64,000 nucleotides of DNA from Candidatus Bathyarchaeota archaeon (GCA_963832745.1 CAWHVC010000005.1:582590-646589), one strand, 5' to 3'. Positions 39,331 to 45,111 are shown, counted from the first letter of the stretch. Numbers and translations: made by a program. The notes: generated from the sequence alone by a model not told the origin.

Positions 39331-40653
39331 TTAACACTTGTACAATAATTCAAGCATTTTTCTAAACAATTTTATAAACAAAAAACAAAAAAAGGAACAG
39401 TTATGCGTTATTGAACAATCACAGGAAACCCATTGCCAGTGGTCAACGAAAAGTTTCAGTTCCTGCAACAAAGCTTTGAATTCTTCATCGCTAATCGACG
39501 TACTTCTCCCTGATGCATATATGTCTTTGATTTTGTTCAAAACTGCTGTCACGGTTTCTGTGTCGGGGTCTGTACCTGTGAATTCAAAGATTTTGTGTTT
39601 AATGATTGTTTTGCCAGATTGCTTTCCAACGCTCAAATGCCGCGAGTTTCCTACAAGTTCTGGCGGATACGGCTCATAAGTCCAAGGGTCACTCAAAACA
39701 GCGTAAGTATGGATACCGGATTCATGCATAAAACCGTACTTACCCACAATAGCCTTGTTTGATGGAATCTCAAACCCAACCGCTGTGCTAATGAAGTCTG
39801 CAACCTGTTTGAGTTTTTCAGTTTTGCCTTCAAACTTGCGTACGCCATAATGCAGATACAGGTTGAGAAGGATTTTTTCGGTTTCAGCGTTTCCAGCCCG
39901 CTCGCCTATGCCCAAAAAGGTTGTGTTGATGTAAAGCTTGTCCCATAATCCCGAGGCTGCTTGAACAGCAGCTAAACTATTGCCAATAGCGTTACCAAAA
40001 TCATCATGCATGTGGATACCTAACGCTTTGATGTTGGTTTCCTTTTTGAGCATCCATATCTTTCTTGGAATACCAAAAGGCAACGGTGCAGCAGTGTCTG
40101 GAAGCCCAACTCCTACGGTGTCACAAACACGGTAACATTCGGCGCCTGCATCCGCAACAGCATTAACAAACTTTTTCTCAAAAGCCCAGTCTGCCCTTGT
40201 GCCGTCTTCGCCGTGAACAAAAGTGCGTAAACCATGAGTTTTAGCAGCGTATTCTACCACGTCAACTACATTTGCAAGAAGTTCCTCAAAGGTCTTGTGT
40301 GGCCATTTAGCTTGCATGTGAAGAAAAGAAACAGGGTGAGAAATGCCGACCTCGTCAAAACCAAGGTCAATAGCGCTGTCAACGTCGGCTTTGATGGTTC
40401 GGCACCAAGCGCTGATGCGGCAGTCAAGTTTGAGGCGCATGATTTGCCTGACAGCTTCTTTGTCAGGTTCTTGGTAATGAAACAGTTCGAGCCGTTGAGC
40501 GCCGACGCTACATAGGAGTTGCGCGGTTTGGGCCGCATCTTTGGGTTTAAAGGCGACGCCTGCCATTTGGGCGCCGTCCCGCAAAGTGGTATCATCGATG
40601 ATTGGGTCAGTTTTTAGCGGGGGCATTTTGAAGTAGAAGTCTTCAAGCCTCAT
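39331..40653 (-). CDS. nifV: Homocitrate synthase-like (NifV/LeuA family)
   Basis: DTTLRDGAQ, HMHDDFG, GIGERAGN, HESGIH; position in the nif operon; C-terminal tail may be a frameshift artefact (alternative stop ~39408). Confidence 0.72.
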   Translation of the reverse strand: MRLEDFYFKMPPLKTDPIIDDTTLRDGAQMAGVAFKPKDAAQTAQLLCSVGAQRLELFHYQEPDKEAVRQIMRLKLDCRISAWCRTIKADVDSAIDLGFDEVGISHPVSFLHMQAKWPHKTFEELLANVVDVVEYAAKTHGLRTFVHGEDGTRADWAFEKKFVNAVADAGAECYRVCDTVGVGLPDTAAPLPFGIPRKIWMLKKETNIKALGIHMHDDFGNAIGNSLAAVQAASGLWDKLYINTTFLGIGERAGNAETEKILLNLYLHYGVRKFEGKTEKLKQVADFISTAVGFEIPSNKAIVGKYGFMHESGIHTYAVLSDPWTYEPYPPELVGNSRHLSVGKQSGKTIIKHKIFEFTGTDPDTETVTAVLNKIKDIYASGRSTSISDEEFKALLQELKLFVDHWQWVSCDCSITHNCSFFCFLFIKLFRKMLELLYKC

Positions 40654-40666
40654 CTCAAGTACATCC

Positions 40667-42004
40667 TTAGAATTCTTTGCGATCCATTATGGTGTTAACG
40701 ATTGTGTCTAGCAGTTGCAGTGTACCTCGGTAACCCATCATTGCACGTCTCTGGTAACCGAACCGGTCAGCTTGCGGGAAACCAACGCGAACCAGTGGGA
40801 TGCATTCATTTTTTGCGATGTATTTGCCTTTGTAGTCGCCGATTATCATGTCAACTTTGGATTCCTTGATTTTCTGGTGCAAATCAAGCAGGTCGCCGCC
40901 TACGATTATGTTTAGTTTTTCTGGTTCTGCATCGTACTCTTTTGCGATGGCTTCGATTTCAGGTGGGAACGTTTTATCGTCAAGGGTTGTCATTACATGG
41001 ACGGGTTGCATGCCAATTTCGTAAGCAAACCGTGTAAGGCCACTTACGATGTCCGGGTCGCCGAAAATTGCCACTTTAACACCGAAAACGTTCATGCTAC
41101 AGTCAGCGTAAGCGTCAACAAGCAGGTCACGTTCATCCATCAACGCTTCACTTGGTTTTTTGCCGGTTTGTCTTGTGACGTTTGATATGAATTCTTCCGT
41201 GCTTGCAATGCCAATTGGGGTGGGACCAAGGAACATGGGGATTCCAAAGCGTTCTTGCATAAAGTTAGCTGCCCCTTGACCTTCTCGTTTGCATATTGCA
41301 AAAGTGCCAAATGAGTTGGCAGAATCCGCGATTTCTTCGATTGTTGTGCCGCCTTTTGGAAATTCGGGTTTAGGCAATCGTAATGGCGCGTTTAGGGTTT
41401 GTGAAATGTCTGTTAGGTAGATTGCGTCTACTTCCATCAGTTCAAGCATATGCTTGATTTCCAGTACATCCCCGGGGTTAATCATGCCGGGAATAATGTT
41501 GATTTTGTTGGTGGGATGGGTCTTTTTCTCTGCAAGCTGGGTAACCATGGCTTTAATTGCGTTATCATAGCCGATTACGTGGTTGCCAACATAGCTGGGC
41601 GTGTTTATGGTCACAATTTTTGCTTTATTTGCAAGGTCCTTGTTCTCTGCACGGAAAGCTTTGGTTATACCGTGGATGTCATCACCTGTTGTTTCGCTTA
41701 GGCATGTTGTTATGACGGTTATTATTTCGGGATGCTTGCGTTCGATGATGTTTCCTAATGCTTGCTTTAAGTTGGATGCACCGCCGAAGATTGTGGCTTT
41801 TTCATGTAGTGAAGTGATTGCGACTTCTATGGGTTCACGAAAGTGCCGTGCCATAAGGTTCCGTGGATACGTGGAACAACCTTGCGAACCATGGACTAAG
41901 GGTACGCTACCATGGATACCAAGGGTTGCCCAGATTGCTCCAATTGGCTGGCACATTTTAGGGGCGTTAACTGAGACGCTTCTTTGGTGTGTGATTACAG
42001 TCAT
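40667..42004 (-). CDS. nifK: Nitrogenase beta subunit (group III-like, short N-terminus)
   Basis: All three P-cluster Cys (CQPIGA, HGSQGC, TTCLSET), TPSYVG and VGFP..DR. Confidence 0.9.
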   Translation of the reverse strand: MTVITHQRSVSVNAPKMCQPIGAIWATLGIHGSVPLVHGSQGCSTYPRNLMARHFREPIEVAITSLHEKATIFGGASNLKQALGNIIERKHPEIITVITTCLSETTGDDIHGITKAFRAENKDLANKAKIVTINTPSYVGNHVIGYDNAIKAMVTQLAEKKTHPTNKINIIPGMINPGDVLEIKHMLELMEVDAIYLTDISQTLNAPLRLPKPEFPKGGTTIEEIADSANSFGTFAICKREGQGAANFMQERFGIPMFLGPTPIGIASTEEFISNVTRQTGKKPSEALMDERDLLVDAYADCSMNVFGVKVAIFGDPDIVSGLTRFAYEIGMQPVHVMTTLDDKTFPPEIEAIAKEYDAEPEKLNIIVGGDLLDLHQKIKESKVDMIIGDYKGKYIAKNECIPLVRVGFPQADRFGYQRRAMMGYRGTLQLLDTIVNTIMDRKEF

Positions 42005-43381: not shown

Positions 43382-44269
43382 TTATTTTCCTCCAACTTTT
43401 TTGGTGCAAGCAGCGTCTTTTTGAGCGGCATTATCTTTTCCAGGTATGCCTACGGCGTCGGCGCGGCATTGTATACAATTATGAAATTGAACCATGATTC
43501 CGCCACAAACATTTCTTACTAATTGGACGTCTTTTAGTGACGGCGCGGGTATGTCGGCAAATTTACCTTGTGGAATAAGCGGCATGACGTTCATGATGTA
43601 TGCGCCCCGTTCCTGCACGGCTTGGGCAACGTCAATTATGTGGTTTGAGTTTATGCCTGGAATAAACACAGTGTTAACTTTAACTGCCATGCCCAATTCT
43701 GCTGCTAAACTTAAGCCTTCAAGCTGGTTTTTGCTTAAGACTTCAAAACCTTCTTTGCCGTGCAATGTCTTGCCGTTATAGCGTACATAAGAATAGATTT
43801 GCTCACCTACTGCAGGGTCAACAGCGTTTATCGTAATGGTCAAAGCATTAACCCCCAAGTCTTTTATGGCACGGATTTTTTCAGGCAGCAATAAACCGTT
43901 TGTTGATAAGCATCGGGTTAAATGGGGAAATTCTTGCTGAACAAATCGCAGAGTTTCAAATGTTGCATCACTGGTTAATGGGTCACCTGGTCCTGAAATA
44001 CCTATAACACGCAGTTGTGGGTCACTTTTTGCTACGGCACGGACACGTTCTATGGCTTCTTTTGGCGTGATTAGTTTGCTTGTAACGCCTGGTCGGCTTT
44101 CGTTTGCGCAGTCAAACTTTCGTACGCAGTAGTTGCAGCCGATGTTGCAGTTGGGTACAACTGGAAGGTGTACTCGGGCAAACTTGTGGTGCGCATCAAC
44201 ACTGTAACAGGGATGCTCCTTTACAATTTGGGAGCACCGCTGTTGATACGCGGTTTTAGAACTAATCAT
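43382..44269 (-). CDS. nifB: Radical-SAM cofactor biosynthesis protein NifB (SAM domain only)
   Basis: HPC, CNIGCNYC, ESRPG, SGPGD, TITIN, CIQCRADA. Confidence 0.95.
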   Translation of the reverse strand: MISSKTAYQQRCSQIVKEHPCYSVDAHHKFARVHLPVVPNCNIGCNYCVRKFDCANESRPGVTSKLITPKEAIERVRAVAKSDPQLRVIGISGPGDPLTSDATFETLRFVQQEFPHLTRCLSTNGLLLPEKIRAIKDLGVNALTITINAVDPAVGEQIYSYVRYNGKTLHGKEGFEVLSKNQLEGLSLAAELGMAVKVNTVFIPGINSNHIIDVAQAVQERGAYIMNVMPLIPQGKFADIPAPSLKDVQLVRNVCGGIMVQFHNCIQCRADAVGIPGKDNAAQKDAACTKKVGGK

Positions 44270-44292
44270 TATCCTTGCACCTGTTCCAAGTT

Positions 44293-45111
44293 TTAGTCTG
44301 AAATGCCGAATTCTCGCATCAGATCCTCTAACTCGTCAATAGTAATCGGAGTTGGAATCGTGAATTCTGTATTGTAAACGATTTTTCTTGCAACACTTCT
44401 GTAAATGTCTGCTTGCGGAGAATATTGATCATAGTCAACTACAGTTTTTCTGTTAATTTCTGCACGCTGCACAATGTTGTCTCTTGGAATGAACTGGATT
44501 AATTTGCTGTTTATTTTCTTAGCAAATTGCGCGACCAAGGCTTCTTCGTTGTCGCATTTTCTTGAATTGCAGATTATTCCACCAAGTCGTGTATGTCCAG
44601 CGTCAGCAAATTTCTTGATGCCCTTGCAAATGTTGTTTGCAGCGTAAAGTGCCATGTATTCGCCTGAGGCTACAATGTAGATTTCTTGGGCGTATCCTTC
44701 ACGAATTGGCATAGCGAAGCCTCCGCAGACGACGTCGCCTAGCACATCGTAGAATACGAAGTCTAAGTCATCTTTGTACATGCCAAGGTCATGCAGCGTT
44801 TGTATTGATGTTATGATGCCTCGTCCGCCACAACCTACTCCAGGTTCGGGTCCGCCTGACTCAACACATGTGACGCCACCAAAGCCTGGTGCTGCAATCA
44901 TGTCAGGTGTGCATTCTCCACCGCCATCTCTGAGAACGTCTAATACTGTTGCTTGTCGTTTTCCGTGGAGCAGTAGCCTGGTGCAGTCTGCTTTGGGGTC
45001 GCATCCTAGAAGTAGGACTTTTTTGCCCATCTCAGCTAATGCTGCGACGGTGTTTTGTGTTGTTGTACTTTTACCGATTCCACCTTTTCCATAAATTGCA
45101 ATTTGTCGCAT
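44293..45111 (-). CDS. nifH: Nitrogenase iron protein NifH
   Basis: [49 protein letters not shown]. Confidence 0.97.

What the first reader, a model, noticed from the sequence alone, without database searches (positions are those of the whole stretch)
39331..45111. Minimal nitrogenase operon nifH-nifB-nifD-nifK-nifV without nifEN, nifI or a G subunit in a probable non-methanogen archaeon
Seen: five genes with gaps of 23, 0, 0 and 13 nt, leaving no room for nifI1/I2, vnfG/anfG or nifEN. All P-cluster and cofactor ligands are present. Established: Mo nitrogenases normally need the NifEN scaffold; Fe-only systems bypass it but use AnfG; characterised archaeal diazotrophs are methanogens or ANME, typically with nifHI1I2DKEN; nifEN-less nifHBDK clusters are known from some Chloroflexi. 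Inference: a self-scaffolding nitrogenase that matures the NifB product with homocitrate directly on NifDK. This bears on nitrogenase evolution and on minimal gene sets for engineering. Host taxonomy is inferred, and nifEN could lie elsewhere in the genome.
Basis: partly seen in the sequence, partly recalled or inferred. Interest (0 to 1): 0.92.

Follow-up and report, generated by a model that had tools for sequence, protein, structure and literature searches.

The report
Bathyarchaeial nitrogenase operon without NifEN
A non-methanogenic archaeon (Bathyarchaeia) carries a compact nitrogen-fixation operon that lacks the usual cofactor scaffold genes, a kind of system already described for close relatives, here with two extra details that appear not to be in print.

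Summary
Five minus-strand genes, nifH, nifB, nifD, nifK and a homocitrate-synthase-like gene, lie at 39331-45111 with gaps of 23, 0, 0 and 13 nt. All P-cluster and cofactor ligands are present.

The genome is 99% complete. It holds no other NifD/K/E/N-type gene, no AnfG/VnfG, no McrA and no classical NifI. The host is a Bathy-6-type Bathyarchaeia: NifD is 93% identical to that of a closed Bathyarchaeia genome, the flanks are syntenic with it, and an archaeal 23S gene lies in the window.

The core finding is already in print. ISME Commun 2024 (PMC11697101) reports nifHBDK without nifEN in Bathy-6. [quoted passage not shown]

I did not find the following in the main texts I searched:
- The nifV-like gene is in the operon in the window and in 10 of 10 Bathyarchaeia loci. 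It is a duplicate of a resident Bathyarchaeia gene.
It has lost both [4Fe-4S] cysteines, yet dN/dS is about 0.11.
- nifH and nifH2 share a palindrome-plus-TATA promoter element. The exact palindrome occurs only at these two sites in the genome.

Verdict: real, a new member of a known kind, of moderate interest.

The parts
45165..45179 (-). Perfect palindrome TGTGAA-N3-TTCACA, 54 nt upstream of the nifH ATG; candidate operator.
   Evidence: Sequence read. The exact palindrome occurs at only 2 places in the 3.02 Mb genome, against about 0.3 expected from base composition. A related core is seen upstream of nifH in all 10 Bathyarchaeia loci (by eye).
45149..45158 (-). TATA-like box CTTTTAAATA between the palindrome and the nifH start.
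   Evidence: TTTAAA-type boxes hold the same position in the aligned upstream regions. Its role as an archaeal promoter is inferred.
44293..45111 (-). nifH, the nitrogenase Fe protein (272 aa).
   Evidence: TIGR01287 430.8 bits, above the cut-off of 394.35. The P-loop GKGGIGKS and both cluster cysteines are present.
43382..44269 (-). nifB, short archaeal-type radical-SAM NifB without a NifX-like C-terminal domain (295 aa).
   Evidence: TIGR01290 342.3 bits against a cut-off of 343.65. The best solved structures are NifB proteins 6y1x, 7jmb and 7bi7, at about 310 bits over nearly the full length. The CNIGCNYC motif is present.
42005..43381 (-). nifD, the dinitrogenase alpha subunit (458 aa).
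   Evidence: TIGR01862 601.5 bits, above 486.05. Ligand cysteines 47, 73, 135 and 253 and His418 are invariant in 89 rows. It is 93% identical to NifD of a closed Bathyarchaeia genome. It sits in the deep NifD clade.
40667..42004 (-). nifK, the dinitrogenase beta subunit (445 aa).
   Evidence: PF00148 419.4 bits. The best solved structures are nitrogenase beta chains 9p1x_B and 9spz_B. Cys18, Cys43 and Cys101 are invariant in 22 rows.
39331..40653 (-). nifV-like homocitrate-synthase-type gene (440 aa), last gene of the tight operon.
   Evidence: HMGL-like plus HCS_D2 domains. The best solved structure is homocitrate synthase 6ktq at 181.7 bits, against 114.7 for the best isopropylmalate synthase. 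It is present after nifK in 10 of 10 Bathyarchaeia loci. It is a paralog of a resident gene.
39260..39274 (-). Second copy of the TGTGAA-N3-TTCACA palindrome, 54 nt upstream of the nifH2 ATG and followed by CTTTTAAATA.
   Evidence: The spacing to the start codon is the same as at nifH.
38388..39206 (-). nifH2, a NifH paralog (272 aa) without the two [4Fe-4S] cysteine ligands.
   Evidence: It is 65% identical to NifH, with Cys to Phe and Cys to Ser at the two ligand positions. TIGR01287 gives 350.1 bits, below the cut-off of 394.35. dN/dS is 0.108 against its ortholog in L023. Its clade nests inside Bathyarchaeia-type NifH.

Best explanation
This is a NifEN-independent, most likely molybdenum-dependent, nitrogenase operon of a Bathy-6-type Bathyarchaeia archaeon.

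Proposed mechanism:
1. NifB makes the [8Fe-9S-C] precursor.
2. The precursor is delivered directly to apo-NifDK.
3. With NifH, molybdate and homocitrate it is matured to FeMo-co on NifDK, so NifDK is both scaffold and enzyme.
4. The co-transcribed HMGL-type synthase supplies the homocitrate.

Shown here: gene content, ligands, absence of NifEN-type genes in the genome, clade membership, and linkage of the synthase gene.

Inferred: activity, metal, the maturation route (by analogy with Roseiflexus), and homocitrate as the product of the synthase.

The nifHBDK core was probably acquired by transfer. The synthase gene was then added by duplication of a resident Bathyarchaeia gene.
For: **No scaffold genes.**
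- PF00148 finds only NifD and NifK in the genome (2 matches, 6 of 6 candidates scored), which is 99.0% complete.
- The nifE model hits only these two, both below its cut-off.
- There is no AnfG/VnfG.
- 0 of 10 Bathyarchaeia loci hold a third or fourth NifD/K-like ORF in the flanks held.

**A real nitrogenase.**
- NifD passes the TIGR01862 cut-off.
- All ligands are invariant. So are the residues aligned with those the Roseiflexus paper names: Gln172, His176, Arg81, Arg335, Phe357 and Lys402. Their mapping to A. vinelandii numbers is recalled, not computed.
- The best solved structures are nitrogenase alpha and beta chains.
- NifD falls in a starred clade (98) of 86 rows, apart from the Rhizobium, Nitratidesulfovibrio and Clostridium NifD and NifE references.

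**Members of that clade work without full NifEN.**
- Roseiflexus (about 55% identical NifD) builds FeMo-co in vitro (PMC11573651).
- Caldicellulosiruptor (57% identical) grows on N2 without nifN (PMC8209448).
- ANME methane-seep clusters lack nifEN and have 15N2 evidence (PMC9012536).

**Molybdate uptake.** modA (87.1 bits, cut-off 62.5), modB (207.4, cut-off 182.6) and a ModE-like gene lie at C5:191-194 kb.

**Synthase gene.**
- It follows nifK in the window and in 10 of 10 Bathyarchaeia loci.
- Its best solved relative is a homocitrate synthase.
- dN/dS is 0.05-0.10.

**Host and assembly.**
- An archaeal 23S gene lies in the window.
- Both flanks are syntenic with the closed genome CP170178.1.

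**Published.** The same conclusion was reached for sister genomes (PMC11697101).
Against: - No activity, expression or metal data exist for this enzyme.
- NifD is below the cut-off of the Mo-specific nifD equivalog (520.2 against 653.55) and above that of the 'alternative nitrogenase alpha' subfamily (571.8 against 512.8). It scores higher against the VnfD structure (451 bits) than against Mo NifD structures (372-426). It also carries the GGPR-WHW loop that VnfD shows in the alignment. Roseiflexus NifD has the same loop and behaved as a Mo enzyme.
- NifB is 1.3 bits below its cut-off. NifK and the synthase are below every equivalog cut-off.
- According to PMC11573651, diazotrophic growth of Roseiflexus itself has not been shown.
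- In my tree the sister group of the Bathyarchaeia clade is unresolved, a polytomy of five lineages.
- The genome carries 4.3% estimated contamination. A non-homologous scaffold cannot be excluded.
Confidence: 0.75

Rival explanations
1. The enzyme reduces N2 but uses a different cofactor: V, Fe-only, or a simpler Mo-free cluster left as delivered by NifB. No Mo-inserting scaffold would then be needed.
For: - NifD passes the 'alternative nitrogenase alpha' subfamily cut-off and not the Mo nifD equivalog.
- It scores higher against VnfD than against Mo NifD structures.
- The VnfD-like GGPR-WHW loop is present.
- Roseiflexus NifDK kept low activity without added molybdate (PMC11573651).
Against: - There is no VnfG/AnfG in the genome.
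- VnfD and AnfD equivalog scores are far below their cut-offs (479.8 against 823.1; 440.8 against 873.8).
- The Roseiflexus enzyme has the same loop and showed Mo-type substrate ratios.
- modAB genes are present.
- A homocitrate-synthase-like gene sits in the operon.
Confidence: 0.1
2. Cofactor maturation still needs a scaffold or helper that is not a NifEN homolog. Candidates are the Cys-less NifH2 paralog and the two NifX-like proteins flanked by MinD-like ATPases on contig C1.
For: - NifH2 is under purifying selection (dN/dS 0.108).
- It shares the nif promoter palindrome at identical spacing.
- Two PF02579 genes lie at C1:453613 and C1:454065, with weak NifH-family P-loop hits at C1:452819 and C1:455960.
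Against: - NifH2 is present in only 1 of the 10 other Bathyarchaeia loci. It is absent between nifV and the next conserved gene in the closed genome L014. It therefore cannot be generally required.
- The control search for PF02579 also rings in genomes of non-diazotrophs such as Thermotoga and Thermus.
- Roseiflexus needed no such factor in vitro.
Confidence: 0.12
3. The cluster is a nitrogenase-like system with another substrate, or a silent relic that no longer fixes nitrogen.
For: - True NifD was found in only 2 of the 151 sampled genomes of the order, counting the window's own. The trait is dispensable and patchy.
- No expression data are on hand.
Against: - All five genes are intact.
- dN/dS is 0.04-0.11 against three relatives.
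- The ligands and second-sphere residues of N2-reducing enzymes are invariant.
- NifD passes the nitrogenase alpha cut-off.
- The only nitrogenase-like (non-nitrogenase) entries among the solved structures listed score far lower (118.5 bits).
Confidence: 0.05
4. The nif region is a binning or assembly artefact from another organism.
For: - GC of the nif region is slightly raised (0.44-0.47 against about 0.42).
- Estimated contamination is 4.3%.
Against: - The cluster sits inside a 646,589 bp contig with an archaeal 23S gene 16 kb away.
- Genes on both sides are 73-95% identical, and in the same order, to those flanking the cluster in the closed genome CP170178.1.
- The synthase gene is of Bathyarchaeia descent.
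Confidence: 0.02

Closest known systems
Bathy-6 Bathyarchaeia nifHBDK locus (Bathy6-F90_cMAG_MillC, CP170178.1; ISME Commun 2024, PMC11697101)
   Same: - Same gene order.
- NifH 93%, NifB 84%, NifD 93%, NifK 90% and synthase 85% identical.
- Same flanking genes.
- No nifEN is reported there.
   Different: - That genome has no nifH2 between the synthase gene and the next conserved gene.
- The paper's main text names nifHBDK only. It contains 0 occurrences of 'nifV' or 'homocitrate'. Its supplements were not visible to me.
Roseiflexus sp. RS-1 NifH/NifB/NifDK, a NifEN-independent Mo nitrogenase (PNAS 2024, PMC11573651)
   Same: - nifHBDK order and no nifEN.
- Same ligands and the same GGPR-WHW loop.
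- NifD of Roseiflexus castenholzii (P0104) is about 55% identical. RS-1 itself was not compared.
- Same deep clade.
   Different: - It is bacterial (Chloroflexota) and thermophilic.
- None of the 10 Chloroflexota loci held a synthase gene next to the cluster in the flanks held.
- Homocitrate was added to the assay.
- The Bathyarchaeia clade is a separate lineage whose sister group is unresolved.
ANME / Methanoperedens 'methane seep group' NifHI1I2DK (PLoS Biol 2022, PMC9012536)
   Same: - Archaeal and lacking nifEN.
- NifD 55-60% identical and in the same deep clade.
   Different: - A gap of about 0.7-0.9 kb between nifH and nifD fits the published nifI1I2.
- There is no nifB between nifH and nifD.
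- No synthase gene is adjacent in most of these loci.
- The hosts carry MCR; this genome has none.
Caldicellulosiruptor nifHDKEB (Microbes Environ 2021, PMC8209448)
   Same: - Deep-branching NifD, 57% identical.
- Incomplete scaffold set.
- N2-dependent growth has been shown.
   Different: It keeps nifE and nifI1I2 and has a different gene order.

Membership tests
Nitrogenase component I alpha subunit (TIGR01862) | Score above the curated cut-off. | tested here: met
   601.5 bits against 486.05.
Nitrogenase component I (NifDK) | Three P-cluster cysteines in each subunit, and the Cys and His ligands of the active-site cofactor in alpha. | tested here: met
   NifD Cys47, Cys73, Cys135, Cys253 and His418 are invariant in 89 rows. 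NifK Cys18, Cys43 and Cys101 are invariant in 22 rows that include reference NifK.
Mo-nitrogenase NifD equivalog (TIGR01282) | Score above the curated cut-off. | tested here: not met
   520.2 bits against 653.55. The model is built on canonical NifD, from which this deep clade is separated.
V or Fe-only nitrogenase (VnfDGK / AnfDGK) | VnfD/AnfD equivalog score, and a G (delta) subunit gene. | tested here: not met
   VNFD 479.8 against 823.1; ANFD 440.8 against 873.8. PF03139 has no match in the genome.
NifEN-less nifHBDK nitrogenases ('Clfx'-type of Garcia et al. 2020, as cited in PMC11697101) | Gene order nifH-nifB-nifD-nifK. | tested here: met
NifEN-less nifHBDK nitrogenases | No nifE/nifN anywhere in the genome. 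| tested here: met
   PF00148 gives 2 matches only. TIGR01283 hits only NifD and NifK. The genome is 99.0% complete.
NifEN-less nifHBDK nitrogenases | Phylogenetic placement with the Chloroflexi clade. | tested here: inconclusive
   It lies inside the deep clade (support 98, starred). The Bathyarchaeia (100, starred, 11 rows) sit in a polytomy with four other lineages in a quick tree. PMC11697101 reports clustering with Clfx.
NifEN-independent FeMo-co maturation (Roseiflexus type) | NifH, NifB and apo-NifDK suffice for cofactor synthesis and N2 reduction. | not testable with these tools
   This needs biochemistry. It is inferred by homology only.
NifB (TIGR01290) | Curated cut-off, and a radical-SAM CxxxCxxC motif. 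| tested here: inconclusive
   342.3 bits against 343.65. The motif CNIGCNYC is present, and the best solved relatives are NifB structures at about 310 bits.
NifV homocitrate synthase (TIGR02660) | Curated cut-off. | tested here: not met
   271.2 bits against 462.9. Function is inferred from the best solved relative, homocitrate synthase 6ktq, and from operon linkage in 10 of 10 loci plus the window.
NifH Fe protein (TIGR01287), applied to nifH2 | Curated cut-off, and the two cysteines per subunit that hold the bridging [4Fe-4S] cluster. | tested here: not met
   350.1 bits against 394.35. Both cysteines are replaced, by Phe and Ser. nifH itself meets both criteria.

The most novel reading that the evidence does not exclude
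After acquiring a bare nifHBDK core, Bathyarchaeia built their own maturation add-ons around it.
- They welded a duplicate of a resident homocitrate-synthase-like gene into the operon.
- In some lineages a nifH duplicate was kept under purifying selection after losing its iron-sulfur ligands, and it is driven by the same nif-specific operator and TATA module. Such a redox-dead NifH-like ATPase would act as a dedicated docking or maturation factor for apo-NifDK. It would take over the non-redox part of what NifH does with NifEN elsewhere.
Probability: 0.2. Interest if true: 0.6.

Novelty: new member of a known kind. Interest (0 to 1): 0.4.

Why it matters
NifEN-less nitrogenases bear on two questions: how the enzyme evolved, and what the smallest gene set for engineering nitrogen fixation is. 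This window does not open those questions, because both the Bathyarchaeia cluster and the self-scaffolding mechanism are published.

It does add a second, independent archaeal genome of 99% completeness in which the absence of NifEN is solid. It shows that in Bathyarchaeia the conserved unit has five genes, nifHBDK plus a homocitrate-synthase-like gene of host descent. That is useful for anyone choosing a minimal set to express.

The Cys-less nifH2 and the shared promoter palindrome are cheap, testable leads on maturation and on nif regulation in an uncultured archaeal class.

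Tried and rejected
- **Expression.** The look-up of sequencing runs on 38388-45111 listed one DNA run with a 0.05 share of words and no RNA holder. This is no evidence either way.
- **More nifH2 orthologs with context.** A scan of metagenome contigs with NifH2 returned 80 loci. The best were only 64-65% identical, that is ordinary NifH-type genes, and I did not analyse them.
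- **Function of the housekeeping synthase paralog.**
  - Its neighbours are RNase P subunits and L15e, which is not informative.
  - A search for LysX of the aminoadipate lysine pathway gave a best hit of 174 bits, below the cut-off. That hit scores best as an MptN/RimK-type ligase.
  - A lysine-pathway role is therefore not shown.
- **Regulon of the palindrome.**
  - Relaxed patterns gave no further promoter sites. Seven places match GTGAA-N3-TTCAC, and five of them are away from the nif genes.
  - A third match to the composite pattern lies inside a 479-aa ORF and is probably chance.
- **Upstream small genes** (45419-45739 with a weak Lrp/AsnC ligand-binding-domain match, 45819-46157, 46206-46901).
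  - Their family matches were weak or absent.
  - They accompany nifH only in the three syntenic close relatives, so no regulatory role is claimed.
- **Not run.** Structure prediction, fold search, complex prediction, the search of protein representatives and the protein-atlas search. All key proteins have close solved or curated relatives.
- **Literature searches for prior mention.**
  - 'Bathyarchae' plus 'homocitrate' found 3 papers. I saw the listing only, and none is on this subject by title.
  - 'nifHBDK' found 10 papers, 7 of them listed.
  - 'apo-NifH' plus 'FeMo-co' found 9 papers, seen as a listing only. The older report that cluster-free NifH supports FeMo-co synthesis (Rangaraj et al. 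1997) is recalled and was not seen in any call.
They may show the synthase gene or nifH2.

Full report
**What is there.**

On the minus strand of the window lie six genes in a row:
- nifH, 44293-45111
- nifB, 43382-44269
- nifD, 42005-43381
- nifK, 40667-42004
- an HMGL-type synthase, 39331-40653

The gaps among the first five are 23, 0, 0 and 13 nt, as reported.

Curated models agree on the names but not always on the cut-offs:
- NifH is above its cut-off (430.8 against 394.35).
- NifD is above the 'nitrogenase component I alpha' cut-off (601.5 against 486.05). It is below the Mo-specific nifD equivalog (520.2 against 653.55).
- NifB is 1.3 bits below its cut-off (342.3 against 343.65).
- NifK and the synthase are below every equivalog cut-off.

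Solved structures give the same picture:
- NifD and NifK match nitrogenase alpha and beta chains best (9spz, 9p1x).
- NifB matches the three solved archaeal NifB proteins over nearly its whole length and has the CxxxCxxC motif.
- The synthase matches a homocitrate synthase (6ktq, 181.7 bits) better than any isopropylmalate synthase (114.7 bits).

**Ligands.**

I aligned 89 NifD sequences, including annotated NifD of Rhizobium, Nitratidesulfovibrio and Clostridium. Cys47, Cys73, Cys135, Cys253 and His418 of the window's protein are invariant. So are Arg81, Gln172, His176, Arg335, Phe357 and Lys402.

In 22 NifK sequences, Cys18, Cys43 and Cys101 are invariant and align with Rhizobium NifK 70, 95 and 153.

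The equivalence of these residues to A. vinelandii numbers is recalled, not computed.

**Is NifEN really missing?**

The window is the last 64 kb of a 646,589 bp contig. The genome has 3,021,879 bp in 5 contigs and is 99.0% complete with 4.3% contamination.

| Search of the whole genome, six frames | Result |
|---|---|
| PF00148 (family of NifD, K, E, N and their kin) | only NifD and NifK; 6 of 6 candidates scored |
| nifE model (TIGR01283) | only the same two, both below cut-off |
| AnfG/VnfG (PF03139) | none |
| McrA (PF02249) | none |
| P-II (PF00543) | one weak match, 31.3 bits, on another contig |
| NifX-like (PF02579) | two genes on contig C1; the control search also rings in non-diazotrophs |
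| SBP_bac_11, then NCBIfam | modA and modB above cut-off, with a ModE-like gene, at C5:191-194 kb |

**Whose genome?**

An archaeal 23S rRNA gene lies at 61187-64000.

The nearest NifD (93%) is that of 'Candidatus Bathyarchaeia archaeon isolate Bathy6-F90_cMAG_MillC', a closed 3.04 Mb genome. The genes on both sides of the cluster are 73-95% identical to, and in the same order as, those flanking the cluster in that genome. So the region is not a misassembly, and the host is a Bathy-6-type Bathyarchaeia.

In a sample of 151 genomes of the same order, a true NifD was found in 2, counting the window's own. The trait is rare and patchy.

**Relatives.**

A scan of species-representative genomes gave 80 loci, whose gene order I read by BLAST of all frames:
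- All 10 Bathyarchaeia loci have nifH-nifB-nifD-nifK-synthase in this order. None has a further NifD/K-like frame.
- Ten Chloroflexota loci have nifH-nifB-nifD-nifK without a synthase gene in the flanks held. Several archaeal bins labelled Hydrothermarchaeota or the like have the same order where the contig is long enough; one of them (L083) has a synthase-like ORF nearby.
- Methanoperedens, ANME-2 and related loci have nifH, a gap of about 0.7-0.9 kb, then nifD and nifK, with no NifE/N-like frame nearby.

A quick maximum-likelihood tree of 93 rows used NifE as outgroup and left out 1 locus of 80.
- It puts all of these in one starred clade (support 98), apart from the three reference NifD.
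- Inside it the Bathyarchaeia form their own clade (support 100, 11 rows).
- That clade sits in an unresolved polytomy with four other lineages: Caldicellulosiruptor, Chloroflexota with Hydrothermarchaeota, ANME-2 with Methanolliviera, and Methanoperedens with Schekmanbacteria.

**What is already known.**

I read passages, not whole papers.
- PMC11697101 (ISME Commun 2024) reports nifHBDK in the closed Bathy-6 genome and several MAGs. It also reports conserved NifD active-site residues, no nifE or nifN in any MAG, clustering with the Chloroflexi 'Clfx' clade, and acquisition by an ancestor of Bathy-6. It calls this the first full nitrogenase cluster in a non-methanogen archaeon.
[quoted passage not shown] NifDK is thus its own scaffold.
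- PMC9012536 states that ANME methane-seep clusters are NifHI1I2DK without nifEN.
- PMC8209448 shows N2-dependent growth of Caldicellulosiruptor, which lacks nifN.

Its remark that ANME carry nifEN is also wrong.

**How it most likely works.**

By homology with Roseiflexus (NifD about 55% identical, same gene order, same ligands):
1. NifB makes the 8Fe precursor.
2. Apo-NifDK receives it directly.
3. NifH, molybdate and homocitrate complete FeMo-co in place.

The metal is inferred. NifD scores better against VnfD than against Mo NifD structures, passes the 'alternative' subfamily cut-off and carries a GGPR-WHW loop like VnfD. But Roseiflexus NifD has the same loop and behaved as a Mo enzyme. 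No G subunit exists here, and molybdate transport genes are present.

**New detail 1: the synthase gene is host-derived.**

- The genome holds a second copy, 67.7% identical, at C5:339395-340720, among housekeeping genes.
- Matches at E <= 1e-60 occur in 84 of 151 genomes of the order, whether or not they have nif. These include copies 60-69% identical in about 66 genomes, among them all 12 other sampled members of the genus.
- In a tree of 38 rows, the 23 housekeeping copies of the family form a clade (support 100). The 12 nif-linked copies are their sister or a basal grade. Both are far from the LeuA-like genes and from a bacterial nif-adjacent synthase.
- The tree did not include housekeeping copies of other families, so the timing of the duplication is not fixed.
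- dN/dS of the operon copy is 0.05-0.10.

The simplest reading is that a resident gene was duplicated and added to a transferred nifHBDK core. The main text of PMC11697101 contains neither 'nifV' nor 'homocitrate'; its supplements were not visible. What the housekeeping copy does was not settled.

**New detail 2: nifH2.**

- The protein is 65% identical to NifH over all 272 residues without a gap. It keeps a P-loop (GKAGIGKT), the switch I stretch and the DxxGD of switch II. The names of these motifs are recalled.
- It has Phe and Ser in place of the two cysteines that hold the [4Fe-4S] cluster.
- Seven such proteins are known to me: the window's, one in L023 (81% identical), and P0122-P0126 (73-83%).
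  - Four keep both cysteines (P0123-P0126).
  - Two lack the second (P0122 and L023).
  - The window's lacks both.
- The window's copy and P0122-P0126 form a clade (support 100) on a long stem, inside a clade of NifH proteins 62-65% identical to it. Two of those are named Bathyarchaeia by their source and the rest are unnamed.
- It is not a decaying gene. dN/dS against the L023 ortholog is 0.108, like nifB and nifK, though dS (0.98) is near saturation.
- It is missing from the closed relative and from 9 of 10 Bathyarchaeia loci, so it cannot be essential to the system.

A redox-dead NifH-like ATPase that docks on apo-NifDK is an attractive but untested idea.

**New detail 3: a shared promoter module.**

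- The perfect palindrome TGTGAA-N3-TTCACA occurs twice in the 3.02 Mb genome, against about 0.3 expected.
- The sites are 45165-45179 and 39260-39274. Each lies exactly 54 nt upstream of the ATG, of nifH and of nifH2 respectively, and each is followed by CTTTTAAATA.
- Upstream regions of nifH in all 10 Bathyarchaeia loci, and of nifH2 in L023, show a related core of the form GAAC-N3-TCACAA followed by a TTTAAA-type box. I judged this by eye from the printed sequences.
- A composite pattern hits three places in the genome. Two are these, and the third lies inside a coding frame.

This looks like an operator next to the TATA box. The regulator is unknown.

**Verdict.**

The feature is a real, well-supported nitrogenase operon without NifEN in a non-methanogen archaeon, and it most likely works like the Roseiflexus enzyme. 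It is a new member of a known and recently published kind.

Noticed in passing
L208 (G064:C10:25000-35776), ORFs 4497-6656 and 3185-4525, minus strand: Four nif-less genomes of the same genus carry a 719-740 aa frame about 27% identical to NifD. In G064 it is a fusion of a NifH domain (341 bits) with an Oxidored_nitro domain (194 bits). A second Oxidored_nitro protein (446 aa) follows it. Next to these lie a FecCD/Peripla_BP_2/ABC transporter and cobalamin genes CbiG and a tetrapyrrole methylase. This is a nitrogenase-like system of unknown role, perhaps acting on a tetrapyrrole. It is absent from the window's genome.
   Followed up: partly
window 20000-34000: This is a low-GC stretch (0.35-0.36 against about 0.42). 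All its genes are on the minus strand. Five have GT1/GT4 glycosyltransferase domains, two are methyltransferases, one is Rce1-like and one is a DUF1616 protein. It looks like a surface-glycan island.
   Followed up: partly
window 45419-45739 (minus strand): A 106-aa protein lies just upstream of nifH. It has only a weak match to the Lrp/AsnC ligand-binding domain (26.7 bits), no DNA-binding part and a serine-rich tail. It is kept at 90-92% identity in the three syntenic relatives. A link to nif is not shown.
   Followed up: partly
G000:C1:452819-456139: Two NifX/NafY-like (PF02579) genes sit side by side. They are flanked by frames with weak NifH-family P-loop matches. This arrangement is common in non-diazotrophs, and a role here is unknown.
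   Followed up: no
G138:C9:651740-655719: The other nif-bearing genome of the sampled order has the operon-linked synthase (75% identical). It has no separate housekeeping copy at E <= 1e-60, in a genome that is 95% complete. The operon copy may serve both roles there, or the second copy is unassembled.
   Followed up: no
window 61187-64000 (minus strand): An archaeal 23S rRNA gene is cut off at the end of the contig (model positions 216-2987). The contig probably ends in the rRNA operon.
   Followed up: no
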